A stretch of 64,000 nt of DNA, taken from the sequence record MZ501109. One strand, written 5' to 3'. This document shows positions 37,564 to 49,228 of the stretch, one piece after another. Within the stretch, counting starts at the first letter, position 1. Every line of letters begins with the position of its first letter. The translations under genes were made by a program, and so were the position numbers. The notes below the pieces were generated by a model. That model was not told the DNA's origin. It was given only the letters and a program-made list of their open reading frames with translations, and did no database searches. Source of the DNA: Escherichia phage TrudiRoth.

Positions 37564-37596
37564 AAGCCCGCGTTTCCTCTGAGAGCGCGGGCTTTT
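37564..37596 (+). terminator. Rho-independent terminator
   Basis: 8-bp stem agcccgcg/cgcgggct, then tttctg. Confidence 0.6.
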
Positions 37597-37772: not shown

Positions 37773-37802
37773 ATATTTATAAATTTGAGAGAGGAATCAA
37801 AT

Positions 37803-38858: not shown

Positions 38859-38859
38859 T

Positions 38860-39537
38860 ATGACTAACTATCTCGTAAATGACTTTAAAAACTGGAAACC
38901 TCTGGAATATCTGTGGCTGTTCATAGCGGTTGTCTTCATTAGTTTAGCAAACTATAATGGTACAGCTCTAGATTGGGCTACTGCAATAACCAATGTGGTT
39001 TGTGTTATTCTGGTTGCAAAAGGACGTGTTTCCAACTATATTTGGGGCTTAGTGGGTGTTCTTACATATGGTATTACAGCTTTAAACGCAGATCTTTATG
39101 GTAACGCTGCACTAAACCTGCTATACTACGTTCCTATGCAGTTTTATGGAATGTACTTATGGCATAAAAATAAGCCAAGTAATCTGCCGGATGTTCCAAC
39201 TAAGGTTCTGACTAAAGCCCAAGCTCTGCTGACTCTAGGGATTCTAGCAGTAGCCACGTTAGGGTATGGTAGTTTCTTAGCTACTACGGCTGATCCATTT
39301 CCAATGTTGGATGCATTTACTGCGGTAGGTAGTGTGATCGCTATGTGGCTTATGGTTAAGCAGTATGCCGAGCAGTGGCTGATCTGGATTGCTATTAACA
39401 TTGGTACTGTGTACATTTGGCTTGTAACTGCTCAATCTACAGGTGCATCTTATGCAATCCTAGCAATGTGGCTAGTATTCTTAGGTAACTCTATTATGGG
39501 AGCCTATAAAGGATACTTTGTACGCGTTAACAAATAA
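38860..39537 (+). CDS. PnuC-like nicotinamide riboside/NMN transporter
   Basis: Polytopic membrane protein immediately downstream of the NadR-like gene; multiple Trp/Asn-rich TM helices. Confidence 0.55.
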   Translation: MTNYLVNDFKNWKPLEYLWLFIAVVFISLANYNGTALDWATAITNVVCVILVAKGRVSNYIWGLVGVLTYGITALNADLYGNAALNLLYYVPMQFYGMYLWHKNKPSNLPDVPTKVLTKAQALLTLGILAVATLGYGSFLATTADPFPMLDAFTAVGSVIAMWLMVKQYAEQWLIWIAINIGTVYIWLVTAQSTGASYAILAMWLVFLGNSIMGAYKGYFVRVNK

Positions 39538-39544
39538 AGTAGTT

Positions 39545-39572
39545 ATAGCCCTCGCTTAGAGGGCTATTATAC
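39545..39572 (+). terminator. Rho-independent terminator
   Basis: 9-bp stem atagccctc/gagggctat, loop gctta. Confidence 0.55.
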
Positions 39573-39584
39573 AGAAATTTTCAC

Positions 39585-39613
39585 TTGCTTAATATAGAAA
39601 ATTTCTGTATAAT
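39585..39613 (+). promoter_or_regulatory. early-type sigma70 promoter (TTGCTT-17-TATAAT)
   Basis: ttcacTTGCTTaatatagaaaatttctgTATAATatatttataaatttgagagagg. Confidence 0.6.
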
Positions 39614-39643
39614 ATATTTATAAATTTGAGAGAGGAATCAAAT

Positions 39644-39940
39644 ATGAAACGCATTGTACTTGCATTGACTCTAGTATCTACTTCTGTATTTGCTGCTCCA
39701 CAACAGGAACTTTGTCAAGTTCAAGTTTGTAATAAGCTAGAACGATTTACTCTAGACATTTGGTCACATATTAAAGATAATATGGGTGAACAGTGTTTTG
39801 ATATTGTTCTGCCAAAAGAACAAGCTGTTCCTGGTGCTGTTCTCAGTTCAGAATCACGTTGGTGGCAGGGTTCTTCTATCAATCCAACTAAGAAGTCAGT
39901 GACACGTATCAAACAAGTATATCAGTGCAATGTTCAGTAA
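39644..39940 (+). CDS. secreted small protein (98 aa)
   Basis: Signal peptide MKRIVLALTLVSTSVFA; start placed after RBS. Confidence 0.55.
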   Translation: MKRIVLALTLVSTSVFAAPQQELCQVQVCNKLERFTLDIWSHIKDNMGEQCFDIVLPKEQAVPGAVLSSESRWWQGSSINPTKKSVTRIKQVYQCNVQ

Positions 39941-39948
39941 AATTTCAC

Positions 39949-39977
39949 TTGCTTAATGCCGAAATTTTCTGTATAAT
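39949..39977 (+). promoter_or_regulatory. early-type sigma70 promoter driving a tRNA operon
   Basis: ttcacTTGCTTaatgccgaaattttctgTATAATatattcataatttcggaag; tRNA starts ~15 nt after -10. Confidence 0.6.
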
Positions 39978-39991
39978 ATATTCATAATTTC

Positions 39992-40085
39992 GGAAGATTA
40001 ACCCTAAAGGTAAGGGAGCTGTTTGCTAAACAGCTAGTAGCTGTGGAAACACGGTGTGCCAGTTCGAGTCTGGCATCTTCCTCCA
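39992..40085 (+). tRNA. tRNA-Ser (anticodon GCU), long variable arm
   Basis: Acceptor ggaagat/atcttcc, anticodon loop uuGCUaa, variable-arm hairpin with GAAA loop, T-arm gccagTTCGAGTctggc, CCA. Confidence 0.7.
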
Positions 40086-40090
40086 AATTT

Positions 40091-40168
40091 GGTTCTCAAG
40101 CTCATTTGGTATGAGCCGTCGCCTCATAAGCGAAAGGTAGGTAGGTTCGAATCCTCCGGGAGCCACCA
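40091..40168 (+). tRNA. tRNA with CAU anticodon (Met, fMet or Ile2)
   Basis: Acceptor ggttctc/gggagcc, D-arm gctc-atttggtat-gagc, anticodon loop cuCAUaa, CCA. Confidence 0.65.
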
Positions 40169-40185
40169 ATTAACTAGGAGACGAT

Positions 40186-40371
40186 ATGTCTAAGTTTCAG
40201 GAATTGAAGCAGGAACTAGAAGAGTGTGCCTGCCCAAAATGCTTCGGAGCAGGTGAATGGAACGATGCTGAACCTGGTGATACATGGTATAATACATACG
40301 TTTGTACACATTGTAATGGTTCTGGTATTAATCCTGAATGCGGTATTTCTCTAGGTATTGAGCGAGGCTAA
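40186..40371 (+). CDS. small Cys-rich zinc-ribbon-like protein (61 aa)
   Basis: CACPKCFG ... CTHCNGSG. Confidence 0.5.
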   Translation: MSKFQELKQELEECACPKCFGAGEWNDAEPGDTWYNTYVCTHCNGSGINPECGISLGIERG

Positions 40372-40372
40372 G

Positions 40373-40705
40373 ATGGATATTTACACTACACCAGCAGTAA
40401 ACCTGATTGGCTCTTGCCTTGTGCATTTCCGCTTCTTCCAAACGGATGATAGCAAAGAGGAGTATACCTATCCTCTGATGGATTTTCAGATTGAGGACTT
40501 CTTCCGTGAAGTGCGTAATATCTCTGAGAACTTCTATTATGGCATGGATAAGGAAGACTTTGACATTGAGTTCCCTATAATCTCTCGTTATTTCCTAGAG
40601 CAGTCCGACGCTCGGTTTGAGAAGATTGAACACATGGAAGTAGCCTGGGCTATCCAGTTCGAAATTACTGGCTTTGCTCGATACATTCAAGGTTACGAAC
40701 TATGA
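40373..40705 (+). CDS. hypothetical protein (about 110 aa)
   Basis: Track ORF 40358..40705; start moved to ATG after RBS gagcgagg. Confidence 0.5.
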   Translation: MDIYTTPAVNLIGSCLVHFRFFQTDDSKEEYTYPLMDFQIEDFFREVRNISENFYYGMDKEDFDIEFPIISRYFLEQSDARFEKIEHMEVAWAIQFEITGFARYIQGYEL

Positions 40706-40797
40706 AATTAAAAGATTATTATATTGGTTGGTTTGTAGGACTAATAGTAGGATTTTCACTGGGCTACAACTTGTATCAACTGATAAACTGATTACAT

Positions 40798-40874
40798 GGG
40801 GGTGTAATCGAATTGGCATAGGTACTGGACTTAAAATTCAGGTTTTGTGGGTTCGAATCCCACCACCCCTACCA
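40798..40874 (+). tRNA. tRNA with UAA anticodon (Leu-type) but short variable arm; D-stem poorly defined
   Basis: Acceptor gggggtg/cacccct, anticodon arm ctgga-cuUAAaa-ttcag, T-arm gtgggTTCGAATcccac, A73, CCA. Confidence 0.45.
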
Positions 40875-41025
40875 AATTAAGGAAATAAAATGAAAGCTAT
40901 TAAGAAAGCACTGCGTAAATTTATGTATTGTCGTTTTCATAGCATCAAGGCTTCAACTAATGGTACTACTTACGATCGCTATGATCCTAAGTTTGGCTTA
41001 CATTCTAAATAACTGGAGAAAACAA

Positions 41026-41232
41026 ATGGCTAATCCTGAAATTACGGCACAACGCTTTATGCTGAAAGGAATTATTGCTGAAGCAGGCATGACAGAAGAA
41101 GTTGCAGATTTTCAAAAGCAATTCCTCAATATTCTCACTCAAGCCAAAGAGCTAGGAGAGAAAGAACATGGCGCGGCTATTATGGCAATCACATTGGTTG
41201 GGCTTGATCTGGCTGAAGAATCAGGAGTTTAA
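41026..41232 (+). CDS. hypothetical protein (about 68 aa)
   Basis: Track ORF 40960..41232; start moved to ATG after RBS ctggag. Confidence 0.4.
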   Translation: MANPEITAQRFMLKGIIAEAGMTEEVADFQKQFLNILTQAKELGEKEHGAAIMAITLVGLDLAEESGV

Positions 41233-41262
41233 CTCCTCCAAGCAGAAATTTTAAAAATGTAC

Positions 41263-41292
41263 TTGCTTTTTACTTAAGATTTCTGCTATAAT
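41263..41292 (+). promoter_or_regulatory. early-type sigma70 promoter (TTGCTT-18-TATAAT)
   Basis: gtacTTGCTTtttacttaagatttctgcTATAATagttatataagttgatgagagg. Confidence 0.55.
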
Positions 41293-41321
41293 AGTTATAT
41301 AAGTTGATGAGAGGAATCAGA

Positions 41322-41588
41322 ATGTTAAAACGTTTTGCAGCAACTGGTATTGAAAGCTCAGTATGTAAATCCTGGGGTGGTTGGGAAGGTGAGATCGAGT
41401 GGCTTTATTTCTACAATGTAGAACTTCTTCCAGAGATCAAAGCTCAATGTATTGAGGCTGGTATGGCTCCTGATGCTACGGCTGATGTTGAAATCAGCAT
41501 GAATAAGCTAGAGGGTCGAGTAGTCACTGTTACTGATGAAGGTGAAGAGGTATTCGAACTTCCATTCACTTTGAAAGTCACTCCTTAA
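41322..41588 (+). CDS. hypothetical protein (88 aa)
   Basis: ORF track, start after RBS. Confidence 0.5.
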   Translation: MLKRFAATGIESSVCKSWGGWEGEIEWLYFYNVELLPEIKAQCIEAGMAPDATADVEISMNKLEGRVVTVTDEGEEVFELPFTLKVTP

Positions 41589-41633
41589 TTTGATTAACTG
41601 ATACAGCACTGAGCAAGTTCTTTAAAATTTGAC

Positions 41634-41662
41634 TTGCTCAGTCCTTCAAAACTTGATATAAT
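41634..41662 (+). promoter_or_regulatory. sigma70 promoter (TTGCTC-17-TATAAT) driving a tRNA operon
   Basis: tttgacTTGCTCagtccttcaaaacttgaTATAATagttatc. Confidence 0.55.
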
Positions 41663-41726
41663 AGTTATCTAATTTGGAAAACATATTTAAAAGTGTTTAA
41701 ACTAGTATTTGAATATTTCTAAATAT

Positions 41727-41817
41727 GTTGGATTAGTATCGTAGAGGTAGCGAAGCAGACTGTAAATCTGCCGACTCGGAAGGGTCTCGGGTGGTTCGAC
41801 TCCATCATCCAACACCA
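41727..41817 (+). tRNA. tRNA-Tyr (anticodon GUA), long variable arm
   Basis: Perfect acceptor gttggat/atccaac, anticodon arm gcaga-cuGUAaa-tctgc, CCA. Confidence 0.7.
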
Positions 41818-41824
41818 AATTTAA

Positions 41825-41901
41825 GTCCTGTTAGACAAACTGGTAAAGTCACTACCCTTTCAAGGTAGGATTTGCGGGTTCGATCCCCGCACAGGACGCC
41901 A
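41825..41901 (+). tRNA. tRNA-Glu (anticodon UUC)
   Basis: Acceptor gtcctgt/acaggac, anticodon arm ctacc-cuUUCaa-ggtag, T-arm gcgggTTCGATCcccgc, CCA. Confidence 0.75.
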
Positions 41902-41904
41902 ATT

Positions 41905-41986
41905 TCTGCATTCCTAGAGTGTTACTGGACAGCATGTCGGTCTCCAAAACCGTACGGTCTAGGTTCGAGTCCTAGTAGGTTTGCCA
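41905..41986 (+). other. tRNA-like element lacking a pairing 5' acceptor strand (possible degenerate tRNA)
   Basis: Anticodon-like loop cuCCAaa, T-arm ctaggTTCGAGTcctag, 3' ...taggtttgCCA; no complementary 5' 7-mer found upstream. Confidence 0.3.
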
Positions 41987-41992
41987 ATATTT

Positions 41993-42067
41993 GCACCTTT
42001 AGCTGAGATGGATTAGCGCTTGCCTGAAGAGCTTGAGAGGTTCGTTCGATACGAACAGGGTGCACCA
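41993..42067 (+). tRNA. tRNA-Phe (anticodon GAA), weak anticodon stem
   Basis: Acceptor gcacctt/agggtgc, D-stem gctg/tagc, anticodon loop cuGAAga with two U-U mismatches in stem, T-arm gttcgTTCGATAcgaac, CCA. Confidence 0.55.
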
Positions 42068-42084
42068 ATTTGAAGGAGATGCTG

Positions 42085-42357
42085 ATGCATCCTGAAAACT
42101 TCTTTATTTACTGTGCGGATAAGTCACTGAAACGCAGAATTAACAAAGTCTATCATTATCGTGCTAGTCAACAGCCTTATGTTTATGCTTTTGATGGAGA
42201 TTACATCCCACTAGAACAGTTGGCCTGTGATTACATGGTTTTGAAGAACTTTGACGAGACAAAGATCTCAAGCGTTCATAATCGACAGAACCCGTTAACG
42301 TGGAAATATAAGAAGAAAAAGAAAGGCATCAAATTCTTAAAAAATGTAGTTGCTTAA
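42085..42357 (+). CDS. hypothetical protein (about 90 aa)
   Basis: Track ORF 42070..42357; start moved to ATG after RBS aaggag. Confidence 0.5.
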   Translation: MHPENFFIYCADKSLKRRINKVYHYRASQQPYVYAFDGDYIPLEQLACDYMVLKNFDETKISSVHNRQNPLTWKYKKKKKGIKFLKNVVA

Positions 42358-42378
42358 CCGCTTAAAGTTCTGTATAAT
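42350..42378 (+). promoter_or_regulatory. early-type sigma70 promoter (TTGCTT-17-TATAAT)
   Basis: tgtagTTGCTTaaccgcttaaagttctgTATAATtattacataaattgaactggag. Confidence 0.6.
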
Positions 42379-42407
42379 TATTACATAAATTGAACTGGAG
42401 AAGCAAC

Positions 42408-42632
42408 ATGACAGAACAAGAATTGAAAGAACGTAAGCTGGTAATGCTTCGCTTACTAAACATTTTCTCTGGTATGGATGGTGGTATTGACTTCATTCAA
42501 CTACGCACTTTTGTAGAAGAAGCAGAAGGCGAGGCTATCACTAGGATTCTTAAACATATGGGTTTGTTACTAGATGCTGCTAATGTGGCTACTCAATATA
42601 AACTCGAAGATTTACCGGAGCGTGTTAAATGA
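42408..42632 (+). CDS. hypothetical protein (74 aa)
   Basis: ORF track, start after RBS. Confidence 0.5.
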   Translation: MTEQELKERKLVMLRLLNIFSGMDGGIDFIQLRTFVEEAEGEAITRILKHMGLLLDAANVATQYKLEDLPERVK

Positions 42633-42820
42633 AAATGTTAGTTAAATTTAAGTGTTGTGGTTCTGAACATATTTTCACTCGTTATAGAGAGTTTAAGATG
42701 TGTGAGTGCGGTAAATCAGGCTACGATGCTGGAGATGGCTATTATGCTAGATCTATAGGACATTCTAAAGATCTAGAGTTTACTAATCTCGAAAAGCAAG
42801 ATAAATCGACCGTTGGCTGA
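42629..42820 (+). CDS. small Cys-containing protein (63 aa); 3' end overlaps a tRNA gene
   Basis: ORF track. Confidence 0.45.
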   Translation: MKMLVKFKCCGSEHIFTRYREFKMCECGKSGYDAGDGYYARSIGHSKDLEFTNLEKQDKSTVG

Positions 42821-42882
42821 ATGGCTTAGGCGGAGGCCTGCAAAACCTCCTTATGTGAGTTCGAATCTCATGCGGTCGTCCA
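42807..42882 (+). tRNA. tRNA-Cys (anticodon GCA)
   Basis: Acceptor cgaccgt/gcggtcg, anticodon arm gaggc-cuGCAaa-acctc (one C-A mismatch), T-arm gtgagTTCGAATctcat, CCA. Confidence 0.6.
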
Positions 42883-42889
42883 AATTTTA

Positions 42890-42972
42890 GGGTCGTTAGC
42901 CAAGCGGTTTGGCGGTGGACTGTTAATCCATGTCGAAAGACAACGTAGGTTCGAATCCTACACGGCCCGCCA
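42890..42972 (+). tRNA. tRNA with GUU anticodon (Asn-type) carrying an atypical 13-nt variable arm
   Basis: Acceptor gggtcgt/acggccc, anticodon arm gtgga-cuGUUaa-tccat, variable gtc-GAAA-gac mini-hairpin, T-arm gtaggTTCGAATcctac, CCA. Confidence 0.5.
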
Positions 42973-43075
42973 TATTCTGTGTAGAGTTAAGTAAACCGGT
43001 AGCCAACCAGCTATCATTGCTGATATCGAATTCAGTCACAGATACCATTTTTCATTAACAACTGAGGAAATAGAT

Positions 43076-43261
43076 ATGACAACTCGTGCAATTGCTCGAC
43101 TAGAAGCTGATCGTGATAATCTGATTAATAATATTAAGGTTCGTGGTAATATTATTAAGGCTCTGAAAGCTGAACTTCTTGAAGAACTTCAAGGTCAAGT
43201 AGAGCGTCGTGAAGCTCTAAAAGAGGTTGAGGAAGCTATCGAAAAACTCAAAACTGAGTAA
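43076..43261 (+). CDS. small coiled-coil protein (61 aa)
   Basis: ORF track. Confidence 0.45.
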   Translation: MTTRAIARLEADRDNLINNIKVRGNIIKALKAELLEELQGQVERREALKEVEEAIEKLKTE

Positions 43262-43264
43262 ATT

Positions 43265-43846
43265 ATGCACGGAATATCCTTACCCATTCCAGGGTTTGAG
43301 GAGTACTTAGTAAGTTTGGATGGGTTAGTATTTAGTATCAAATCAAACAAAATACTAACCCAAATAACCAGTAATTACGGATACTTATCTATACGTCTCC
43401 ATAAAAATGGTCAACAGAGAAATACCGGTGTACATAGGATTTTAGCATGTGCATTTAAGAAATTACCAAGTCTAGACTCTGAACTAGAAGTTGACCATAT
43501 TAACACAGACATTACTTATTGGGGTCTTAATAACTTACAAGTGCTCACAAAAGAGCAGCATCTAGAAAAGACTTTAAAAGATAAAGGATTTAGTAAACTA
43601 AACCATGATAATTGTTGTAAGGATTGTGGTAAAGCTATTTCTTTAAAAGCTGAAAAATGTCAGGAGTGCTCTTCACATAAACCAAAAGATATCTCTATAA
43701 CTAAAGAAATAATCGAGGTTACAGTAAGAGAGCTAGGCTGGTCAGGTGCAGGGAGAAAGTTAAGTTATTCAGATAATGGGTTGCGTAAAAGATACACTTC
43801 TTTAGGAGGCAATCCTAAAGAACTTAAAAAGTTAAAGGTACTATAG
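43265..43846 (+). CDS. HNH homing endonuclease (HNH_3-like); 3' end overlaps tRNA-Asp
   Basis: HRILACAF...EVDHINTDITYWGLNNLQVLTKEQH; Cys-rich CKDCGKAIS...CQEC. Confidence 0.7.
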   Translation: MHGISLPIPGFEEYLVSLDGLVFSIKSNKILTQITSNYGYLSIRLHKNGQQRNTGVHRILACAFKKLPSLDSELEVDHINTDITYWGLNNLQVLTKEQHLEKTLKDKGFSKLNHDNCCKDCGKAISLKAEKCQECSSHKPKDISITKEIIEVTVRELGWSGAGRKLSYSDNGLRKRYTSLGGNPKELKKLKVL

Positions 43847-43911
43847 TCTAACGGTTAGGATACTCCCCTGTCACGGGAGAGGTAGGGTTTCGATTACCCT
43901 TAGTACCGCCA
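43837..43911 (+). tRNA. tRNA-Asp (anticodon GUC)
   Basis: Perfect acceptor ggtacta/tagtacc, anticodon arm ctccc-cuGUCac-gggag, T-arm agggtTTCGATTaccct, CCA. Confidence 0.75.
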
Positions 43912-43917
43912 AATTAT

Positions 43918-43994
43918 ACATCCATAGCTCAATTGGTTAGAGCTACCGCCTCTTAAGCGGTAGGTTCTAGGTTCAAGTCCTAGTGGGTGTACCA
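43918..43994 (+). tRNA. tRNA-Lys (anticodon CUU)
   Basis: Acceptor acatcca/tgggtgt, D-arm gctc-aattggtta-gagc, anticodon arm accgc-cuCUUaa-gcggt, T-arm ctaggTTCAAGTcctag, CCA. Confidence 0.65.
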
Positions 43995-44207
43995 AACATC
44001 AGAGCAGCGTGATGTACTGCAAAGACCCAAAGTCCGGGGTGGACTTCTTGATTCAAAGGAGCAGGCACTAATTATCATTCTAGCGTGGTGGAGAGGGGAC
44101 ACCAGCTTGCCGAGGGTAGAAGCTCGTTCGATTCGAGTGAAAGAATGGTTCTCGTAAATCCGCACAAGTGATAGCAGGTTCAAGTCCTGCCTAGATTGAC
44201 TTATTAT

Positions 44208-44281
44208 GCGTTCGTAGTTAAAAGGTATAATTTTTGGTTGCCAACCAGAAGTTGAGGGTTCGATTCCCTCCGACCGCACCA
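44208..44281 (+). tRNA. tRNA-Gly (anticodon GCC)
   Basis: Acceptor gcgttcg/cgaccgc (one mismatch), anticodon arm tttgg-uuGCCaa-ccaga, T-arm gagggTTCGATTccctc, CCA. Confidence 0.6.
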
Positions 44282-44590
44282 AATCTATCAAACCAAGCCT
44301 GCGCATTCGTGTAACAACTTGTGCGTCTGTAAGGTGATAGTAAACAAGCCACGGAGTTCCGGCCGTTCAACGTGGTAAAATCTTCTGAATAACAGGTCGT
44401 GGATACCTCTTTGGAGGCTCAACGGAAACGCAGGAGTGTAAGTAAACGAAAGTTTACTTATTATGTAGGTTCCGATAGATCGGCGGGTCTATTCTGGCAT
44501 TTAAGAGAAGTCTCGCAAACTTCTTTGTCAGCCGTGGGGTTGGTAGCCTCCAGGTGGCCTACACAATAAGTAAATTTATTAAAAATTAAT

Positions 44591-44619
44591 TTGCTATTCT
44601 GCTTAATTATCTGTATAAT
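44591..44619 (+). promoter_or_regulatory. early-type sigma70 promoter (TTGCTA-17-TATAAT)
   Basis: ttaatTTGCTAttctgcttaattatctgTATAATatattttataaagtgaataga. Confidence 0.6.
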
Positions 44620-44653
44620 ATATTTTATAAAGTGAATAGAAGGAAGTTAACAA

Positions 44654-44893
44654 ATGAAAAAATATTCAGAAGAATTTCTAGAAGATATGGATTTACATTA
44701 CCTGTTAACTTTGGTTTTAGAAGAAAAAATCTATGACCAATTTGATCTAGAAGGTCTTACAAAAGTAGATTGTATTCGTGCCCTTCTCACTGTTGAAACT
44801 CGCTATTTCGAATGTCAACAGTGTGGTGAAGTTAATGAGTGCTCTTGGGAATGTCCAGAGTGTGGATATGACGATCTGCTTGAAACAGAATAA
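44654..44893 (+). CDS. small zinc-ribbon protein (79 aa)
   Basis: CQQCGEVNECSWECPECG. Confidence 0.5.
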   Translation: MKKYSEEFLEDMDLHYLLTLVLEEKIYDQFDLEGLTKVDCIRALLTVETRYFECQQCGEVNECSWECPECGYDDLLETE

Positions 44894-44896
44894 TAT

Positions 44897-44973
44897 CTCC
44901 GATTAGCTCAATTGGTTAGAGCTACCGCCTCTTAAGCGGTAGGTTCTAGGTTCAAGTCCTTCATTGGAGACCA
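44897..44973 (+). tRNA. second tRNA-Lys(CUU)-like gene with weakened T-stem (possibly degenerate)
   Basis: D-arm, anticodon arm and T-loop identical to the 43918 copy; acceptor ctccgat/attggag; T-stem only 3 bp. Confidence 0.45.
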
Positions 44974-44979
44974 AACAAT

Positions 44980-45057
44980 TGCGGGTTAGATCTTTGGTAG
45001 AGATCGCTAGTCTCATAAGCTAGAAAGAGGTAGGTTCGATTCCTGCACCCGCTTCCA
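44980..45057 (+). tRNA. tRNA with CAU anticodon (Met/fMet/Ile2), U1-U72 mismatch
   Basis: Acceptor tgcgggt/acccgct with mismatched first pair, anticodon arm ctagt-cuCAUaa-gctag, T-arm gtaggTTCGATTcctgc, CCA. Confidence 0.55.
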
Positions 45058-45078
45058 ATTTAATAGAAGGATTTCGAA

Positions 45079-45243
45079 ATGAAATTATTTCGTTTAAAAG
45101 TAAGTGATTTACGTTCTAGCAAAGATCGTAAGAAGTATCCACTAGCCCATTACGGTAAAGATGAAAACGAAGTGATGGCGGAATTTGGTATTAATCACCC
45201 TTACTTAAAAGTTTATTCTATTAAGGAAGTCTATGCTAATTAA
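45079..45243 (+). CDS. small ORF (54 aa), below ORF-track threshold
   Basis: Own translation MKLFRLKVSDLRSSKDRKKYPLAHYGKDENEV... Confidence 0.35.
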   Translation: MKLFRLKVSDLRSSKDRKKYPLAHYGKDENEVMAEFGINHPYLKVYSIKEVYAN

Positions 45244-45706
45244 TAAAGTTTTAGCTGCCTTAAACCTTCCTGATAACTTCATTATAGATGATAAGCTCAT
45301 AAGAGCTTATATGAGCAAATATAACGAAATTTCAGGTAAAGAAGGTAAGTTAAAAACTTCAGAGTTTAGATTCTGTTATCGAATGGCAGCCTTAAATCTC
45401 TTAAAATATAAAAGGGAGCATAAAATACCTATAACGGAAGGTTTTGTATATGTAATTGGTAATCCAGCATGGCCAGGCATGTATAAAATAGGTATGACTA
45501 TAGATGTGAATGAGAGGTTAACAAGTTATCAAACTTATTCACCTAATAGAGACTACAAGCTATACCATTTCAGATTTTCGTCGGATAAAAGACGTACAGA
45601 GAAAGAATTACATAATCTTCTTAAAGATTATAGAGTATCTGGAGAATGGTTTGAAGTACCTGTACTAGATGCTTTTAAATTATTAGTAGAAAAATTGGAT
45701 TGCTAG
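45233..45706 (+). CDS. T5orf172-like (GIY-YIG-related) putative homing endonuclease; 3' end overlaps a tRNA
   Basis: GFVYVIGNPAWPGMYKIGMT... and YRVSGEWFEV; recalled from the T5orf172 domain, not searched. Confidence 0.5.
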   Translation: MLINKVLAALNLPDNFIIDDKLIRAYMSKYNEISGKEGKLKTSEFRFCYRMAALNLLKYKREHKIPITEGFVYVIGNPAWPGMYKIGMTIDVNERLTSYQTYSPNRDYKLYHFRFSSDKRRTEKELHNLLKDYRVSGEWFEVPVLDAFKLLVEKLDC

Positions 45707-45774
45707 CTCAACTGGATAAGAGTAGCGGACCTTTAATCCGTCAGTTCTGGGTTCGAATCCCAGGCAATCCACCA
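45697..45774 (+). tRNA. tRNA-Lys (anticodon UUU) with C at position 33
   Basis: Perfect acceptor ggattgc/gcaatcc, D-stem gctc/gagt, anticodon arm gcgga-ccUUUaa-tccgt, T-arm ctgggTTCGAATcccag, CCA. Confidence 0.6.
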
Positions 45775-45778
45775 AATT

Positions 45779-45852
45779 GCTCGGTTAGTTTAATGGGAGA
45801 ACCCCGTCTTTACACGGCGGTTGCGATAGTTCGATTCTATCACCGAGTACCA
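45779..45852 (+). tRNA. tRNA-Val (anticodon UAC)
   Basis: Acceptor gctcggt/accgagt, D-stem gttt/gaac, anticodon arm ccgtc-uuUACac-gacgg, T-arm gatagTTCGATTctatc, CCA. Confidence 0.7.
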
Positions 45853-45870
45853 CTCAACTAAAATAAGGAA

Positions 45871-46113
45871 TTGCAAATGCAATTATCATCTAAAGTTCAA
45901 GGTTTCTTCGCACATGCAACAGCAGAATTTGCTATTAGCAAGGGTTGGGATTTTGAGCAAGAACTTTCTGAGTTCTATAAAGATATAGATATGAATACGC
46001 CATACATGGGACTCTCCACTGGTCAAGAGATCACAGAAGGCGATGTGTTCAAGGCAAGTCAAGGTGAGGTAACACCTAGTTTTGCCGCTTTTTTGGAGTG
46101 GCTTCACAATTAA
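45871..46113 (+). CDS. hypothetical protein (80 aa)
   Basis: ORF track. Confidence 0.5.
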   Translation: MQMQLSSKVQGFFAHATAEFAISKGWDFEQELSEFYKDIDMNTPYMGLSTGQEITEGDVFKASQGEVTPSFAAFLEWLHN

Positions 46114-46222
46114 AGAAGAAGCTCCAGATGATGATGTATTTATGCAAAGCATGCACTCTGGGAGTTCTGATATGTTATTTGTTAAAGATGTACGACATAT
46201 CCAAGAAGTGGTAAAAACGCAG

Positions 46223-46251
46223 TTGCTTAATGCTTAATTTCTTGTTATAAT
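46223..46251 (+). promoter_or_regulatory. early-type sigma70 promoter followed by ~330 nt with no ORF, then tRNAs
   Basis: cagTTGCTTaatgcttaatttcttgtTATAATatttatataaattgatgcg. Confidence 0.6.
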
Positions 46252-46585
46252 ATTTATATAAATTGATGCGAAAATAGCTGCCTAGATACCAGGTGTATGA
46301 CGTCTACACTAGCAGAGCTACCGAAAAAGAGATCCTCAGGATAAACGTCGTAGCAAAATTAGTCTGGTATCCATTAATTTAGTTCACTAAGGTATTAGCT
46401 CGACCTAGGACTGGCTGCCAAAAAGCACGATCCCTACGATTTGGGAGAAGTTCTAGATTAGTCCACTAGATTCAGCGGCAACTGAATAGTGTATCGGGTT
46501 TGTGAAGAGCAGCTATTCTCTACTGGCTAATGTCTGAGGTTAGTACGCACACCGAGCTAATAGCCTTAGTAAACTTAAAGAATTT

Positions 46586-46661
46586 GGGCGAATAGTGTCA
46601 GCGGGAGCACACCAGACTTGCAAGTCTGGTAGGGAGGGTTCGAGTCTCTCTTTGTCCACCA
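46586..46661 (+). tRNA. non-canonical tRNA (GCA-containing anticodon arm; loop of 8 or 6 nt)
   Basis: Acceptor gggcgaa/tttgtcc, D-arm gtgt-cagcggga-gcac, anticodon arm is a perfect 18-nt palindrome ccagacttgcaagtctgg, T-arm gagggTTCGAGTctctc, CCA. Confidence 0.45.
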
Positions 46662-46676
46662 AATTAAAAAGAATGC

Positions 46677-46753
46677 GCGCGATTGACGGAATAGGTATAC
46701 GTGTCAGCCTTAGAAGTTGAATTTTGAGGGTTCGAATCCCTTGTCGCGCACCA
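46677..46753 (+). tRNA. tRNA with UAG anticodon (Leu-type) but short variable arm
   Basis: Perfect acceptor gcgcgat/gtcgcgc, anticodon arm tcagc-cuUAGaa-gttga, T-arm gagggTTCGAATccctt, A73, CCA. Confidence 0.5.
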
Positions 46754-46878
46754 AATTTGATGGTCAGAGTAAATTAAACCTACTATCTCGGTTGAGCTGT
46801 TTTAATGGATTCGAATCCCAGCGAGGCGTAACTGCCTGGCGTGATAGAGGCATCATTCCACTAACATTGGAAAAACTA

Positions 46879-47109
46879 ATGAAACGAAAATTAAAAAAGT
46901 CTTATATAATTAAGATAAATAAGCTACGAAGTAGGGCAAAAGGATGGCCACTTCGAATATTAATTGCGGATAACCATATTAGATACCATGCGGAACAACA
47001 TCATTACAAACAGTGGGAGTCATACTGTCGCTCAAAAGCAGGTCGTTTAGATGGATCTTATGAGCTTCTATTTGGTAAGAAGCCTACTAGATTAGCTTTA
47101 GGTAAGTAA
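46879..47109 (+). CDS. small basic protein (about 76 aa)
   Basis: Track ORF 46717..47109 truncated to internal ATG because its 5' part overlaps tRNA/tRNA-like sequence. Confidence 0.4.
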   Translation: MKRKLKKSYIIKINKLRSRAKGWPLRILIADNHIRYHAEQHHYKQWESYCRSKAGRLDGSYELLFGKKPTRLALGK

Positions 47110-47114
47110 TACTT

Positions 47115-47208
47115 GGAAAAGCAAATAGACTGGCGACTAAACCCGATTGGAAATCGGTTGAGTAATAGCAATATTGCCTTATGGGTTCAACTCCCATCTT
47201 TTCCGCCA
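47115..47208 (+). tRNA. tRNA-Ser (anticodon GGA), long variable arm
   Basis: Perfect acceptor ggaaaag/cttttcc, anticodon arm ccga-uuGGAaa-tcgg, T-arm atgggTTCAACTcccat, CCA. Confidence 0.7.
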
Positions 47209-47223
47209 AATATTGGAGTATAG

Positions 47224-47739
47224 ATGCTAACACAACAAGAATTAAAATCCGTGTTGTTATATAAACCAGATACTGGAGAGTTTTTCTGGAAATATAGATC
47301 TGATTTAGATAGTCAATGGAATAGTAAATATGCTGGAACTAGGGCAGGATTTATTAATGAACTAGGCTATTGGAAGATAACTCTAGGAAATACTAGCTGG
47401 TTAGCACATCGTCTAGCATTCTTATACATGACTGGGGAAATACCAGATCTAATTGACCACAAGGATCAAGATAAGTCCAATACTAAATGGGATAACTTAC
47501 GAATAGCCACTGTATCACAGAATCAGGCTAATGCTAAATTAAGGGTAGATAATACCTCTGGGTACAAAAATGTAACTTGGCATAAGCAAAGAAATAAGTG
47601 GAAAGTAGAAGTACGTAAAGATGGCAAACTCCATTATGGTGGACTTTTTACAGAACTAGATAAAGCTGTAAATAAAGCTAATAATCTTAGACGTGAGTTA
47701 TTCGGGGAATTTGCAGTATATGAAGAGTTTATGGGGTAG
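47224..47739 (+). CDS. HNH-AP2 homing endonuclease (paralog); 3' end overlaps tRNA-Ser
   Basis: HRLAFLYMTGEIPDLIDHKDQDKSNTKWDNLRIATVSQNQAN and AP2-like SGYKNVTWHKQRNKWKVEVRKDGK. Confidence 0.75.
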   Translation: MLTQQELKSVLLYKPDTGEFFWKYRSDLDSQWNSKYAGTRAGFINELGYWKITLGNTSWLAHRLAFLYMTGEIPDLIDHKDQDKSNTKWDNLRIATVSQNQANAKLRVDNTSGYKNVTWHKQRNKWKVEVRKDGKLHYGGLFTELDKAVNKANNLRRELFGEFAVYEEFMG

Positions 47740-47829
47740 GTCAATCCAACGGCTGGCGCTGGACTCCGACTTGAAATCGGTTGATCGTAGTGATACGGTG
47801 TAAGGGTTCGATCCCCTTACCTACCTCCA
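47735..47829 (+). tRNA. tRNA-Ser (anticodon UGA), long variable arm
   Basis: Perfect acceptor ggtaggt/acctacc, D-stem tcca/tgga, anticodon arm ccga-cuUGAaa-tcgg, T-arm aagggTTCGATCccctt, CCA. Confidence 0.7.
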
Positions 47830-47849
47830 ATTAACTATAAGGAATCCTT

Positions 47850-48023
47850 ATGAGCAAAACAGCTACTGTAACAATGAAGGATGGTACAAAATTTAAAGCA
47901 TGTCTTCATGAAACAGATAATGGATGGAAGGCTTATTTGCCACACCTAGATTCCACTGGGTATGGAATGACCCAACGTGAAGCTATTGTTGATGCTTTAA
48001 ATGAGGCTTCCGCTGGTTTATAA
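47850..48023 (+). CDS. small ORF (57 aa), below ORF-track threshold
   Basis: Own translation MSKTATVTMKDGTKFKACLHETDNGWKAY...; RBS taaggaatcc. Confidence 0.35.
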   Translation: MSKTATVTMKDGTKFKACLHETDNGWKAYLPHLDSTGYGMTQREAIVDALNEASAGL

Positions 48024-48029
48024 AAATTC

Positions 48030-48160
48030 TTGGAATATGCCGGAATTGGTAGACGGGACTGCCGAATAGGTTTACTAGGAACATCCACTCCTAGAAATAT
48101 ACCTTAAAAGCGGTTGAGTTAAATGGTATAACTCATGAAGGTTCAAGTCCTTCTATTCCT
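48030..48160 (+). tRNA. tRNA-Leu(UAA)-like gene (type II) with ~40-nt insertion in the anticodon arm; 131 nt, no encoded CCA
   Basis: Acceptor tggaata/tattcct (6 of 7 bp), UG at 8-9, Leu-type D-arm ccg-GAATTGGTAGA-cgg, stem actgc(48057-61)/gcggt(48109-13) separated by 47 nt ending in cuUAAaa, 6-bp variable hairpin, T-arm gaaggTTCAAGTccttc. Confidence 0.4.
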
Positions 48161-48282
48161 TGATACATCAATGGCTCAAAGTGTAACGGTGCTATTTGAT
48201 GCTCTTGGCAAGACTTCCCCGACATGCGTTCGGGAGTAAGCTGCTAAGACTAGAGTAGAAGAGTTTCAACAAGACAACGATA

Positions 48283-48357
48283 GCTCTTAAAGCATTGCTG
48301 GCGATGCAGTTGCCTTGTAAGCATCTGAACCGGGTTCGATTCCTAGTGGGAGCACCA
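48283..48357 (+). tRNA. tRNA-Thr (anticodon UGU)
   Basis: Acceptor gctctta/tgggagc, D-stem gcat/atgc, anticodon arm gttgc-cuUGUaa-gcatc, T-arm ccgggTTCGATTcctag, CCA. Confidence 0.6.
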
Positions 48358-48373
48358 AAATTAAAAAATTCAT

Positions 48374-48402
48374 TTGCCTTCTCTCTTATTTCTTGTTATT
48401 AT
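48374..48402 (+). promoter_or_regulatory. sigma70 promoter (TTGCCT-17-TATTAT)
   Basis: ttcatTTGCCTtctctcttatttcttgtTATTATatttatataaattaatgagaggg. Confidence 0.55.
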
Positions 48403-48432
48403 ATTTATATAAATTAATGAGAGGGAAACCAA

Positions 48433-48726
48433 ATGAAACGTTATCTTTCTGTTATGTTCCAAACTGGTGGTCAACGCTATACTTATGAATTTCCATCTTC
48501 TTGGAAGATCAAAGAAGGTGATCAAGTAGTAGTGTTAACACCGCGTGATGGTTTCAAGGTAGTAACGGTTAAGCAAGTATTTCCAAAAGATCACGAACCA
48601 TCTAAGGCTATTCAGTACAAGATGATTCATGGTCTGGTACGAAAAGTACCTAGAACAGAAGTCGAAGTAGATAAAACTGGGGAAGCTAAATACCAGTATA
48701 CCTCTTACTTAGACGAGTTGTTATAA
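48433..48726 (+). CDS. hypothetical protein (97 aa)
   Basis: ORF track, promoter and RBS. Confidence 0.55.
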   Translation: MKRYLSVMFQTGGQRYTYEFPSSWKIKEGDQVVVLTPRDGFKVVTVKQVFPKDHEPSKAIQYKMIHGLVRKVPRTEVEVDKTGEAKYQYTSYLDELL

Positions 48727-48932
48727 TGGGAATTACTTTCACAGAAAAGATTATGGGCAATGGTGTTATGATCATTACCGCATGGGATGGTAATCAGTGG
48801 TGTAGTGTTTCAGGTATTAAGCCTGAAGAACAAACACTAGAAAATATCTCAAAGATTAAGCGAAGAATGGCAGAACGTGCACGACTTCCAGGTGCGCCTA
48901 GAAATGGTAAACGTTCTGCAATTAAATGTTAA
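48726..48932 (+). CDS. hypothetical protein (68 aa)
   Basis: ORF track. Confidence 0.5.
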   Translation: MGITFTEKIMGNGVMIITAWDGNQWCSVSGIKPEEQTLENISKIKRRMAERARLPGAPRNGKRSAIKC

Positions 48933-48934
48933 TG

Positions 48935-49011
48935 CTTCGGTAGCTTAGCGATCTAAAGCACTCGGCTGATAACCGAGAGATCGGGGGTTTAAATCCCTCC
49001 CGGAGTACCAA
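48935..49011 (+). tRNA. tRNA-Ile (anticodon GAU)
   Basis: Acceptor gcttcgg/ccggagt, D-stem gctt/aagc, anticodon arm ctcgg-cuGAUaa-ccgag, T-arm gggggTTTAAATccctc, CCA. Confidence 0.7.
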
Positions 49012-49104
49012 ATTTAGGAAGTAAGACTATGCGTCCAGGAAAGTTTAAAAAAAAAAAAAAGCTAATTGGTCTAAAGAGTATAAAGAATATTTACTTAGTC
49101 TAGT

Positions 49105-49180
49105 AAAACATAATAGTTAGTTGGCAGAGTGGTTATGCACCTCCTTCATACGGAGCGACTACAGTGGTTCAAATCCACTA
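49105..49180 (+). tRNA. tRNA with CAU anticodon (Met/fMet/Ile2)
   Basis: Perfect acceptor agttagt/actaact, anticodon arm ctcc-uuCAUac-ggag, T-arm agtggTTCAAATccact, CCA. Confidence 0.6.
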
Positions 49181-49228
49181 CTAACTACCATAAAAAAGAG
49201 CTAGAGATAGCTAAATATAGGAGCAAGT

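What the first reader, a model, noticed from the sequence alone, without database searches (positions are those of the whole stretch)
43918..44973. Duplicated tRNA-Lys(CUU) body with divergent ends; second copy has a degraded T-stem
A ~55-nt segment covering D-arm, anticodon arm and T-loop is identical at 43927-43981 and 44906-44960, but the acceptor strands differ and the second copy's T-stem drops to 3 bp. This suggests a recent duplication with one copy decaying or changing identity. The copies flank an ORF-poor stretch that itself contains T-arm-like hairpins.
Basis: seen in the sequence. Interest (0 to 1): 0.45.

Follow-up and report, generated by a model that had tools for sequence, protein, structure and literature searches.

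The report
Proline tRNA gene overwritten by lysine tRNA
In this T5-like phage, the middle of the proline tRNA gene has been overwritten with a copy of the lysine tRNA gene 979 bases upstream, leaving a hybrid gene with a weakened arm; it is a tidy example of recombination reshaping a phage tRNA cluster, not a new kind of system.

Summary
An exact 57-nt direct repeat (43925-43981 = 44904-44960) links two genes that ARAGORN calls tRNA-Lys(CUU). The second has different acceptor strands and a 3-bp T-stem.

The interpretation needs correcting. The window is a T5-like phage (Demerecviridae, Epseptimavirus-like). In all ordinary relatives, the slot of copy 2 (between a 79-aa ORF and tRNA-fMet) holds tRNA-Pro(UGG). 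Copy 2 keeps that Pro gene's flanks, 5' acceptor strand and 3' T-stem/acceptor strand exactly. Its interior is identical to the phage's own Lys(CUU). At the 36 sites that tell Lys from Pro, the pattern is P×7, L×21, P×8. This is a short-patch ectopic gene conversion, with junctions in 12-nt and 6-nt shared stretches, and not a duplication followed by decay. The T-stem defect arises because its two strands come from different parents.

The phage has no other tRNA-Pro. Salmonella phage beppo carries the same Lys→Pro junction as a one-piece fusion lacking the ~979 bp in between, which is the product expected from recombination between the window's two repeats.

The "T-arm-like hairpins" belong to a homologue of T5's tRNA-like stable RNA2. 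The chimera is probably a weakened Lys-type tRNA of little consequence. Interest is modest.

The parts
43918..43994 (+). Intact tRNA-Lys(CUU), the donor of the copied tract
   Evidence: ARAGORN call. Rfam 69.6 bits with no mismatched pairs. Identical to the Lys gene of bux and Shin27.
43925..43981 (+). Repeat copy 1 (donor tract): D-arm, anticodon arm, variable loop, 5' T-stem strand, T-loop and first base of the 3' T-stem strand
   Evidence: Exact 57-nt direct repeat D4.
44897..44973 (+). Chimeric tRNA gene: tRNA-Pro(UGG) locus and acceptor stem with a tRNA-Lys(CUU) interior. The T-stem is reduced to 3 bp; CCA is encoded.
   Evidence: ARAGORN Lys(ctt). Rfam 55.5 bits with 2 non-standard T-stem pairs. 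Alignments to the Pro genes of relatives. Informative-site pattern P7-L21-P8.
44904..44960 (+). Maximal converted tract (repeat copy 2). The minimal tract is 44916-44954. The left junction lies within the shared TAGCTCAATTGG (44904-44915) and the right junction within the shared AGTCCT (44955-44960).
   Evidence: wild-type Lys and Pro share only 12 nt.
44961..44973 (+). Pro-derived 3' T-stem bases, 3' acceptor strand, A73 and CCA (TCATTGGAGACCA)
   Evidence: Identical to 1Sgal2PP, bombadil and faergetype tRNA-Pro.
44076..44201 (+). Homologue of T5 'RNA2, tRNA-like stable RNA with unknown functions'. It contains the T-arm-like hairpins at 44120-44136 and 44172-44188.
   Evidence: 89% identity to T5 L005:3012-3138. 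T5 annotation. Conserved alignment. Outer stem plus T-arm fold.
44208..44281 (+). tRNA-Gly(GCC)
   Evidence: Rfam 61.1 bits.
44463..44565 (+). Homologue of T5 stable RNA 'RNAIV', lying within the strongly structured stretch 44449-44570
   Evidence: 95% identity to T5 L005:3144-3340. T5 and BF23 annotations. Fold z-score -3.5.
44591..44619 (+). Sigma-70-type promoter (TTGCTA-17-TATAAT), homologue of T5 promoter P13a. It heads the unit ORF79, chimera, tRNA-fMet.
   Evidence: homology to the annotated T5 P13a.
44654..44893 (+). 79-aa ORF with two CxxC pairs, ending 4 nt before the chimera. It is present in 1Sgal2PP, bombadil and faergetype, and absent in bux and Shin27.
   Evidence: only a weak DUF7129 hit.
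44980..45057 (+). tRNA-fMet(CAU), the downstream neighbour of tRNA-Pro in all relatives
43265..43846 (+). NUMOD4 + HNH homing-endonuclease-like ORF overlapping the 5' end of tRNA-Asp. It is a possible source of breaks in the cluster.
   Evidence: Pfam. 39% identical to the endonuclease that abuts tRNA-Pro in GEC_vB_N5.
45233..45706 (+). T5orf172/MUG113 (GIY-YIG-like) ORF overlapping the 5' end of tRNA-Lys(UUU)
   Evidence: Pfam E = 3e-18 and 6e-15.

Best explanation
Copy 2 is the phage's tRNA-Pro(UGG) gene. A 39-57-nt interior patch of it was replaced, non-reciprocally, by the matching part of the tRNA-Lys(CUU) gene 979 bp upstream. This is ectopic short-patch gene conversion, equivalent to a double crossover.

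The exchange resolved in the only stretches the two genes share in register. On the left this is TAGCTCAATTGG (positions 8-19 of the tRNA). On the right it is AGTCCT (end of the T-loop and first base of the 3' T-stem strand).

The product has four features:
- a Pro acceptor stem (C1-G72, A73, CCA) in the native Pro leader/trailer context;
- a Lys D-arm, anticodon arm (CUU) and variable loop;
- a hybrid T-stem, with the 5' strand from Lys and the 3' strand from Pro, which leaves U50·U64 and C49·C65 unpaired;
- loss of the phage's only tRNA-Pro as a consequence.

The following steps are inferred, not shown. The trigger was probably repair of a double-strand break or a template switch in a cluster rich in homing endonucleases. 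The RNA, if it matures, would be charged by LysRS (anticodon plus A73) rather than ProRS (which needs G35/G36). It would work poorly because the T-stem pairs read by EF-Tu are broken. The event is most likely a neutral or slightly harmful accident in a dispensable region. The new 57-nt perfect repeat makes the 979 bp between the copies prone to deletion, which is the arrangement seen in phage beppo.
For: Synteny:
- More than 100 T5-like records, including T5 itself, have tRNA-Pro directly upstream of tRNA-fMet.
- 1Sgal2PP, bombadil and faergetype have ORF79, Pro, Met in that order.

Sequence:
- The window is about 96% identical to these three genomes across 44436-45233.
- Within the tRNA, all 15 outer informative sites are Pro-type and all 21 inner ones are Lys-type.
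- The interior is 100% identical to the window's own Lys allele (GCGGTAGG). It does not match the Lys allele of the genomes that carry this Pro type.
- The donor is unchanged. No reciprocal product exists in any phage record.

Rarity:
- No other tRNA pair in 4 complete clusters shares more than 16 nt.
- No tRNA-Pro or Pro-type anticodon arm occurs elsewhere in the 64 kb.

Structure:
- Cloverleaf energy is -18.7 kcal/mol for the chimera, against -22.9 (Lys) and -22.2 (Pro).
- Rfam flags the two T-stem mismatches.

Second genome: beppo has the identical junction.

Context:
- HNH and GIY-YIG-like ORFs lie in the cluster.
- An HNH endonuclease gene ends inside tRNA-Pro's 5' end in GEC_vB_N5.
- Homing endonucleases drive conversion and microhomology rearrangements in T4/T6 tRNA clusters (PMC2330249, PMC13096335).
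- The T5 tRNA region is deletable (PMC11464382).
- Identity rules are reviewed in PMC9976931. EF-Tu contacts T-stem pairs 49-65, 50-64 and 51-63 (PMC3239215).
Against: - The chimera is known from this one genome only. It is absent from INPHARED, IMG/VR, JGI metagenome contigs and GTDB genomes, and raw reads could not be checked.
- Nothing here shows expression, processing or charging.
- The Rfam score of the chimera (55.5) equals that of the wild-type Pro it replaced (55.4), so the score does not show loss of function.
- MFE folding is uninformative, because even the intact Lys does not fold into a cloverleaf as its MFE structure.
- No cleavage site of any endonuclease is known at this locus, so the trigger is conjecture.
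- Whether the patch arose within one genome or through a beppo-like intermediate cannot be decided.
Confidence: 0.85

Rival explanations
1. Inter-phage route. A beppo-like genome, in which Lys and Pro were already fused by a deletion at the AGTCCT microhomology, recombined with a normal phage. Downstream homology (Pro 3' end, Met) aligned the partners, and the exchange resolved in the 12-nt TAGCTCAATTGG. This put the Lys interior into an otherwise intact ORF79-Pro-Met locus. The final structure is the same as in the best explanation, but the order of events is reversed.
For: - Beppo carries the identical junction and the same pairing of a bux-type Lys allele with a bombadil-type Pro 3' strand.
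- Its 717 nt to the left of the junction differ from the window at 1 position.
- The region is heavily mosaic between lineages.
- This route needs the same number of microhomology junctions as the within-genome route.
Against: - Beppo's right flank is no closer to the window than other genomes are: 11 mismatches in 273 nt.
- The differences nearest the junction are private to each genome.
- A 57-nt perfect repeat giving rise to a deletion is mechanistically easier than a 6-nt microhomology deletion (inference).
- Beppo's deletion could be an assembly collapse of a 57-nt repeat.
Confidence: 0.25
2. One reading: tRNA-Lys(CUU) was duplicated, and the second copy is decaying or shifting identity through point mutations at its ends and in the T-stem.
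For: There are two Lys(CUU)-anticodon genes with an identical core, and the second is structurally weaker.
Against: - All 15 'diverged' informative positions match the orthologous tRNA-Pro of relatives exactly, as do both flanks. Random decay would not recreate another gene's acceptor stem.
- The slot is occupied by Pro in relatives.
- Zero substitutions in the 57-nt core is incompatible with enough time for 15 changes at the ends.
Confidence: 0.02
3. Sequencing, assembly or polishing artefact: the true genome has a normal tRNA-Pro, and Lys reads were mis-placed.
For: - The chimera is a single-genome observation.
- The same genome has another private oddity, a 1-nt insertion in the tRNA-Ala anticodon loop.
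Against: - Wild-type Lys and Pro share at most 12 nt, too little for graph or mapping confusion at normal k-mer or read lengths.
- A mis-join would swap flanks, not insert a clean internal patch.
- An independent record (beppo) contains the same Lys-to-Pro junction.
Confidence: 0.06
4. Adaptive hybrid: the chimera is a functional tRNA kept by selection. It might serve as extra AAG-decoding capacity or as a Lys tRNA with an unusual body that escapes host tRNA-cleaving defences.
For: - Phage tRNA-Lys is a known counter-defence: T5 tRNA-Lys(UUU) neutralises PARIS (PMC11464382, PMC12409363).
- AAG makes up 40% of Lys codons in this phage.
- The acceptor stem, anticodon arm, encoded CCA and promoter context are all intact.
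Against: - The chimera's anticodon arm, where AriB acts, is identical to that of the Lys(CUU) already present, so nothing new is offered there.
- The T-stem is broken at pairs that EF-Tu reads (PMC3239215).
- The price is loss of the only tRNA-Pro, although CCA plus CCT make up 77% of the phage's Pro codons.
- It is found in one genome only, and the related beppo form is clearly dead: acceptor stem mismatched, 37.2 bits, cloverleaf -6.0 kcal/mol.
Confidence: 0.06

Closest known systems
Ectopic (intergenic) gene conversion between dispersed tRNA genes, e.g. the serine tRNA suppressor genes sup3/sup9/sup12 of Schizosaccharomyces pombe
   Same: A short internal tract moves non-reciprocally from one tRNA gene to another. 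The donor is unchanged, the recipient's flanks are kept, and hybrid tRNA genes result.
   Different: The yeast examples involve near-identical genes for the same amino acid. Here donor and recipient accept different amino acids and share only 12-nt and 6-nt identical stretches. The product therefore changes anticodon identity and breaks the T-stem. The setting is a lytic phage genome.
Alloacceptor tRNA remolding / tRNA gene recruitment in mitochondrial genomes (PMC4783518)
   Same: A tRNA locus ends up more similar to a tRNA for a different amino acid than to its own orthologues, and the ancestral function at that locus is lost.
   Different: Remolding is defined as duplication, then an anticodon point mutation, then loss of the ancestral gene. 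Here the anticodon arm and core were transplanted into a resident acceptor stem by recombination. There was no anticodon point mutation, no duplication of a whole gene, and no evidence that the product is functional.
Homing-endonuclease-driven conversion and rearrangement in phage tRNA clusters (T4 SegB, PMC2330249; T6 SegB amplification using microhomology, PMC13096335; T5 F-TflI/II/IV)
   Same: The genomic setting is the same: free-standing HNH or GIY-YIG genes interleaved with tRNA genes, mosaic inheritance, and microhomology junctions at tRNA ends.
   Different: Those cases transfer or amplify whole segments between allelic sites. Here the repair template would be a non-allelic tRNA gene, and no endonuclease cut site has been mapped at this locus.
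Repeat-mediated deletions in the dispensable tRNA region of T5 (T5Mos, T5-123 and other deletion mutants cited in PMC11464382)
   Same: The region tolerates loss of many tRNA genes. Beppo's loss of Gly(GCC), the RNA2/RNAIV homologues and functional Lys(CUU)/Pro fits this pattern.
   Different: Here a candidate precursor state is visible: a freshly created 57-nt perfect repeat flanking exactly the segment that beppo lacks.

Membership tests
tRNA gene (Rfam RF00005 / canonical cloverleaf) | Score at or above the family gathering threshold (29 bits) | tested here: met
   55.5 bits, the same as the wild-type Pro of 1Sgal2PP at 55.4 bits.
tRNA gene (Rfam RF00005 / canonical cloverleaf) | 7-bp acceptor stem, 4-bp D-stem, 5-bp anticodon stem with a 7-nt loop | tested here: met
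   All pairs are canonical or G·U in the imposed cloverleaf.
tRNA gene (Rfam RF00005 / canonical cloverleaf) | 5-bp T-stem | tested here: not met
   Only G53-C61, G52-C62 and A51-U63 pair. U50·U64 and C49·C65 are mismatched.
Orthologue of the phage tRNA-Lys(CUU) | CUU anticodon and A73 discriminator | tested here: met
   sequence.
Orthologue of the phage tRNA-Lys(CUU) | Same genomic position and acceptor stem as Lys(CUU) in relatives (directly after tRNA-Asp) | tested here: not met
   It lies between ORF79 and tRNA-fMet. The acceptor strands are CTCCGAT/ATTGGAG, not ACATCCA/TGGGTGT.
Orthologue of the phage tRNA-Pro(UGG) | Position directly upstream of tRNA-fMet, with identical flanks and acceptor stem (C1-G72, A73) | tested here: met
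Orthologue of the phage tRNA-Pro(UGG) | UGG anticodon (G35 and G36, the major ProRS determinants; PMC9976931) | tested here: not met
   The anticodon is CUU, and no Pro-type anticodon arm exists anywhere in the window.
Short-patch ectopic gene conversion tract | Tract identical to a donor elsewhere, recipient identity kept on both sides, junctions in shared sequence, donor unaltered, no reciprocal product | tested here: met
   P7-L21-P8 pattern. Junctions lie in the 12-nt and 6-nt identities. The donor equals the bux/Shin27 Lys. No reciprocal chimera in the phage records.
Gene duplication followed by divergence | Ancestral state lacks a gene at the second site, and differences are scattered new mutations | tested here: not met
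   Relatives have Pro at the site. All end differences equal the Pro sequence.
Alloacceptor tRNA remolding (PMC4783518) | Whole-gene duplication plus an anticodon point mutation, yielding a functional tRNA of new identity | tested here: not met
   There is no whole-gene copy and no point mutation; an internal block was transplanted. Functionality cannot be tested with these tools.
Functional, aminoacylated tRNA | Expression, 5'/3' maturation, charging by a synthetase, EF-Tu binding | not testable with these tools
   Only context is available: a promoter homologous to T5 P13a lies upstream, the Pro leader and trailer are unchanged, and T-stem pairs 49-65 and 50-64 are broken.

The most novel reading that the evidence does not exclude
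The chimera is expressed, matured and aminoacylated, making it a naturally occurring hybrid tRNA with a proline-type acceptor end and a lysine anticodon. It would be kept because it adds AAG-decoding capacity under host tRNA-targeting defences. Alternatively, if ProRS still accepts its C1-G72/A73 end, it would insert proline at AAG lysine codons. A milder version of the novel reading is that the window shows the first step of a two-step route of tRNA-gene loss: a microhomology patch conversion creates a long perfect repeat, and deletion between the repeats follows, as in beppo.
Probability: 0.06. Interest if true: 0.7.

Novelty: new variant of a known kind. Interest (0 to 1): 0.33.

Why it matters
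The finding shows, at single-nucleotide resolution, how a phage tRNA repertoire can change in one step. Recombination between two tRNA genes for different amino acids, using only 12-nt and 6-nt shared stretches, erased the only tRNA-Pro and produced a second Lys-anticodon gene.

There is a practical lesson for annotation. tRNA finders label the gene "tRNA-Lys" with a normal score, so repertoire counts would record a Lys duplication and miss the Pro loss. Only synteny reveals what happened.

Together with phage beppo, the locus suggests a testable route of tRNA-cluster erosion: conversion creates a long perfect repeat, and the repeat then mediates deletion. This matters because phage tRNAs, lysine tRNAs in particular, are now known to counter host tRNA-cleaving defences.

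It is not a new biological system, and the hybrid is probably of little functional consequence.

Tried and rejected
- **Rfam on the inter-copy stretch.** At permissive thresholds (43700-45200) it found only tRNAs and chance hits. T5's RNA2 and RNAIV are not Rfam families.
- **Exact-pattern scans for the Lys→Pro junction.** Zero hits in IMG/VR, JGI metagenome contigs and GTDB genomes.
- **BLAST of the chimera against 50,697 phage records.** No full-length match better than ordinary Pro (86.3%). Only beppo shares the junction.
- **Search for the reciprocal product** (Lys ends with a Pro interior). None found.
- **Unconstrained MFE folding.** Uninformative, because the intact Lys also misfolds in silico. 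I used imposed-cloverleaf energies instead.
- **Rfam bit score as a proxy for function.** Rejected, because the chimera scores the same as the wild-type Pro.
- **Ordering the window-type and beppo-type arrangements from flanking differences.** Indecisive. The left flank is nearly identical, the right flank is not, and the nearest differences are private.
- **Codon usage as a driver.** No support: CCA plus CCT make up 77% of Pro codons and AAG 40% of Lys codons.
- **Duplication-and-decay and assembly artefact.** Considered and rejected for the reasons given under rival explanations.
- **Weak tRNA-like hit at 35148-35219.** It is not a Pro tRNA.
Full report
**1. What is in the sequence**

The window carries a 23-gene tRNA cluster (35-49 kb) interleaved with small ORFs. 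Within it, 43925-43981 and 44904-44960 are an exact 57-nt direct repeat, 979 nt apart. ARAGORN calls the two host genes tRNA-Lys(ctt), at 43918-43994 and 44897-44973.

- Copy 1 is a clean cloverleaf scoring 69.6 bits in Rfam.
- Copy 2 has different but fully paired acceptor strands (CTCCGAT/ATTGGAG). Its T-stem has only three Watson-Crick pairs, with U·U and C·C at its base, and it scores 55.5 bits.

The repeat is far outside the background. The next-longest run shared by any two tRNAs of this phage is 15 nt, and the median over 253 pairs is 7 nt. In the complete clusters of T5, beppo and Shin27, the maximum is 14-16 nt, always in the T-arm.

**2. What genome this is**

The region matches hundreds of T5-like phages of Salmonella, Escherichia and Klebsiella (Demerecviridae, mostly Epseptimavirus). 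The closest overall is E. coli phage Shin27, at 98.7% over 89% of 24 kb. No record is identical.

**3. The key comparison**

In relatives the gene order is Asp, Lys(CUU), [spacer], Gly(GCC), [spacer], (ORF), **Pro(UGG)**, fMet. T5 itself has Pro-fMet at the same place. More than 100 records align to the copy-2 locus as ordinary tRNA-Pro.

I aligned the window with 1Sgal2PP, bombadil and faergetype, which share the 79-aa ORF upstream. Everything from the promoter through ORF79, the 5' acceptor strand, the 3' T-stem/acceptor strand, the 6-nt spacer and tRNA-fMet is collinear and about 96-98% identical. The exception is the interior of the tRNA.

In tRNA register, Lys and this Pro allele differ at 36 sites. 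Copy 2 is Pro-type at the first 7, Lys-type at the next 21 and Pro-type at the last 8, with no exception.

- The minimal replaced tract is 44916-44954 and the maximal is 44904-44960.
- The left junction lies in TAGCTCAATTGG, the longest stretch the two wild-type genes share (12 nt).
- The right junction lies in AGTCCT.

The replaced interior carries the window's own Lys allele (…GCGGTAGG…, as in bux and Shin27). It does not carry the allele found in the genomes that have this Pro type (…GCGGAGGG…). The donor gene is intact, and no reciprocal product exists in any phage record.

This is the signature of a non-reciprocal short-patch conversion of tRNA-Pro by tRNA-Lys. It is not a duplication whose ends then diverged.

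**4. Consequences that can be read from the sequence**

- The T-stem defect is structural bookkeeping. Its 5' strand (CUAGG) is Lys and its 3' strand (CCUUC) is Pro.
- The imposed-cloverleaf energy drops to -18.7 kcal/mol, from -22.9 (Lys) and -22.2 (Pro).
- The phage has no other tRNA-Pro. ARAGORN and Rfam find none, and a 3-mismatch search for the Pro anticodon arm finds nothing in 64 kb.
- CCA and CCT, the codons a UGG tRNA serves best, make up 77% of the phage's Pro codons. AAG is 40% of its Lys codons. Codon usage therefore offers no obvious reason to trade Pro for a second Lys(CUU).
- The chimera sits in an unchanged expression context. A TTGCTA-17-TATAAT promoter homologous to T5 P13a lies upstream, followed by ORF79, the chimera and fMet.

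**5. Predicted behaviour (inference)**

According to the identity review PMC9976931:
- E. coli lysine identity rests on the anticodon and A73.
- Proline identity rests on G72, G35, G36, A73 and C1-G72.

The chimera has CUU and A73, and it lacks G35 and G36. If it matures, LysRS is the expected charging enzyme, and ProRS is unlikely to charge it.

EF-Tu reads T-stem pairs 49-65, 50-64 and 51-63 (PMC3239215), and two of these are broken. I therefore expect a poorly performing Lys-type tRNA.

Rfam cannot see this. The chimera scores the same as the wild-type Pro (55.5 versus 55.4 bits).

**6. A second genome with the same junction**

Salmonella phage beppo matches 44904-44985 at 100% but not the Pro 5' strand. 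Its order is Asp, [Lys 5' strand + Lys interior + Pro 3' strand], fMet. Gly(GCC), the spacers, ORF79 and the Pro 5' part are absent.

That fusion has a largely mismatched acceptor stem. It scores 37.2 bits, and its cloverleaf energy is -6.0 kcal/mol. Only beppo has it among 50,697 phage records.

Beppo's arrangement is exactly what recombination between the window's two 57-nt repeats would give. It also unites the same bux-type Lys allele with the same bombadil-type Pro 3' strand. The 717 nt left of the junction differ from the window at one position.

The right flank is no closer than in other relatives, so descent cannot be proved. The order of events (window-type first, or beppo-type first followed by a cross with a normal phage) remains open. 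Beppo's gap could also be an assembly collapse of a window-type repeat. Either way, the junction exists in an independent isolate, which argues against an artefact here.

**7. Likely trigger (inference)**

The cluster is mosaic at sub-kilobase scale:
- The window is 99.8-100% Shin27/bux-type up to 44287.
- It is then bastian/S126-type.
- It is 1Sgal2PP-type from about 44436.

The cluster contains a NUMOD4-HNH ORF overlapping tRNA-Asp (43265-43846), a T5orf172/MUG113 ORF overlapping tRNA-Lys(UUU) (45233-45706) and another HNH ORF (47224-47739). In Salmonella phage GEC_vB_N5, a NUMOD4-HNH gene that is 39% identical to the window's ends inside the 5' end of tRNA-Pro. The Pro locus is therefore a homing-endonuclease insertion site in this family.

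Homing endonucleases in T4/T6 tRNA clusters cause co-conversion and microhomology-based rearrangements (PMC2330249, PMC13096335). Repair of a break in Pro, primed on the nearby Lys gene and re-annealed through the 12-nt identity, would give this product. A replication template switch would do the same. No cut site is known here.

**8. The stretch between the copies**

- 44076-44201 is 89% identical to T5's annotated "RNA2, tRNA-like stable RNA with unknown functions". It holds both T-arm-like hairpins and folds as an outer stem stacked next to a T-arm.
- 44463-44565 corresponds to T5 "RNAIV", and the surrounding 44449-44570 is strongly structured (z = -3.5).
- 44572-44646 corresponds to promoter P13a.
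- 44288-44435 is absent from the seven genomes fetched first but present in bastian, S126, S132 and others. BF23 annotates RNAIV and a promoter under its match to this query.

These are conserved features of the family and unrelated to the conversion.

**9. Comparison with known phenomena**

The event works like ectopic gene conversion between tRNA genes. I recall this being documented for near-identical serine tRNA genes in fission yeast, but I did not check it here. In outcome it resembles mitochondrial alloacceptor remolding (PMC4783518).

It differs from both. Donor and recipient serve different amino acids and share only short microhomologies. The anticodon arm, rather than a single anticodon base, was moved. 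The product is structurally compromised. I found no description of such a phage chimera in the searchable literature, but that library is incomplete.

**10. Verdict**

The finding is real and now explained. It is a recombinant Pro/Lys tRNA gene, most likely a recent, neutral or mildly harmful accident in a dispensable, recombination-prone region (T5 deletion mutants are described in PMC11464382).

Confidence is about 0.85 in the structural explanation. It is lower, about 0.6, for the functional prediction, and about 0.5 for a direct evolutionary link to beppo.

It is a new variant of a known kind of event, of modest interest. Its value is as a caution for tRNA annotation and as a candidate "caught in the act" intermediate of tRNA-cluster erosion.

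Noticed in passing
window 46586-46661: ARAGORN's 'tRNA-??? (tgca)' is the orthologue of T5 tRNA-Ala(UGC) with a 1-nt insertion (G) that makes an 8-nt anticodon loop (CTTGCAA[G]), plus a C-to-T change in the T-stem. No phage record matches it above 97%, so the insertion appears private to this genome. It could be a decaying gene, a frameshift-type tRNA or a sequencing error.
   Followed up: partly
window 35000-49200 versus L011 (Shin27): The window's cluster has 23 tRNA genes against 29 in its closest relative Shin27. It lacks Pro, the second Ala, Ser(UGA), His, Arg(ACG), both Gln and Gly(UCC). Around 47115-47739 it instead carries a T5-type Ser(GGA) (100% identical to T5 over 96 nt) followed by an HNH ORF. 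This suggests ongoing erosion and replacement of the cluster.
   Followed up: partly
L004 2994-3070 (Salmonella phage beppo, NC_092682.1 86713-86789): The gene annotated 'tRNA-Lys' is a Lys-5'/Pro-3' fusion with a mostly unpaired acceptor stem (37.2 bits; cloverleaf -6.0 kcal/mol). Beppo has no tRNA-Pro, no Gly(GCC) and no intact Lys(CUU). The public annotation is misleading, and the 979-bp gap might be an assembly collapse.
   Followed up: partly
window 43991-44074: The segment just after tRNA-Lys(CUU) is 95-98% identical to Klebsiella T5-like phages (e.g. vB_KpnS_Boggle_ER46, VAC35), where it lies under 'hypothetical protein' annotations (H81-H85). It differs from bombadil and faergetype at the same position. 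Its fold is not better than shuffled sequence.
   Followed up: partly
window 35148-35219: A weak tRNA-like element: 29.3 bits in Rfam, with good acceptor, D-arm and T-arm but an unalignable anticodon region and no CCA. ARAGORN does not call it. It may be another T5-style tRNA-like RNA or a tRNA remnant.
   Followed up: partly
window 44994: There is a private T (all compared relatives have C) in the D-loop of tRNA-fMet, 34 nt downstream of the conversion junction.
   Followed up: no
L008 1833-2478 (Salmonella phage GEC_vB_N5): A NUMOD4-HNH homing endonuclease gene ends 8 nt inside tRNA-Pro(UGG). This tRNA is not annotated in the record but is found by ARAGORN. The slot upstream of tRNA-Pro varies across the family: it is empty in bux and Shin27, holds T5.066 in T5, ORF79 in bombadil and the window, and an endonuclease gene in GEC_vB_N5.
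   Followed up: partly
window 44654-44893: The 79-aa ORF has two CxxC pairs (CQQCG…CPECG), like a zinc ribbon. It has only a sub-threshold DUF7129 hit, and its function is unknown.
   Followed up: no
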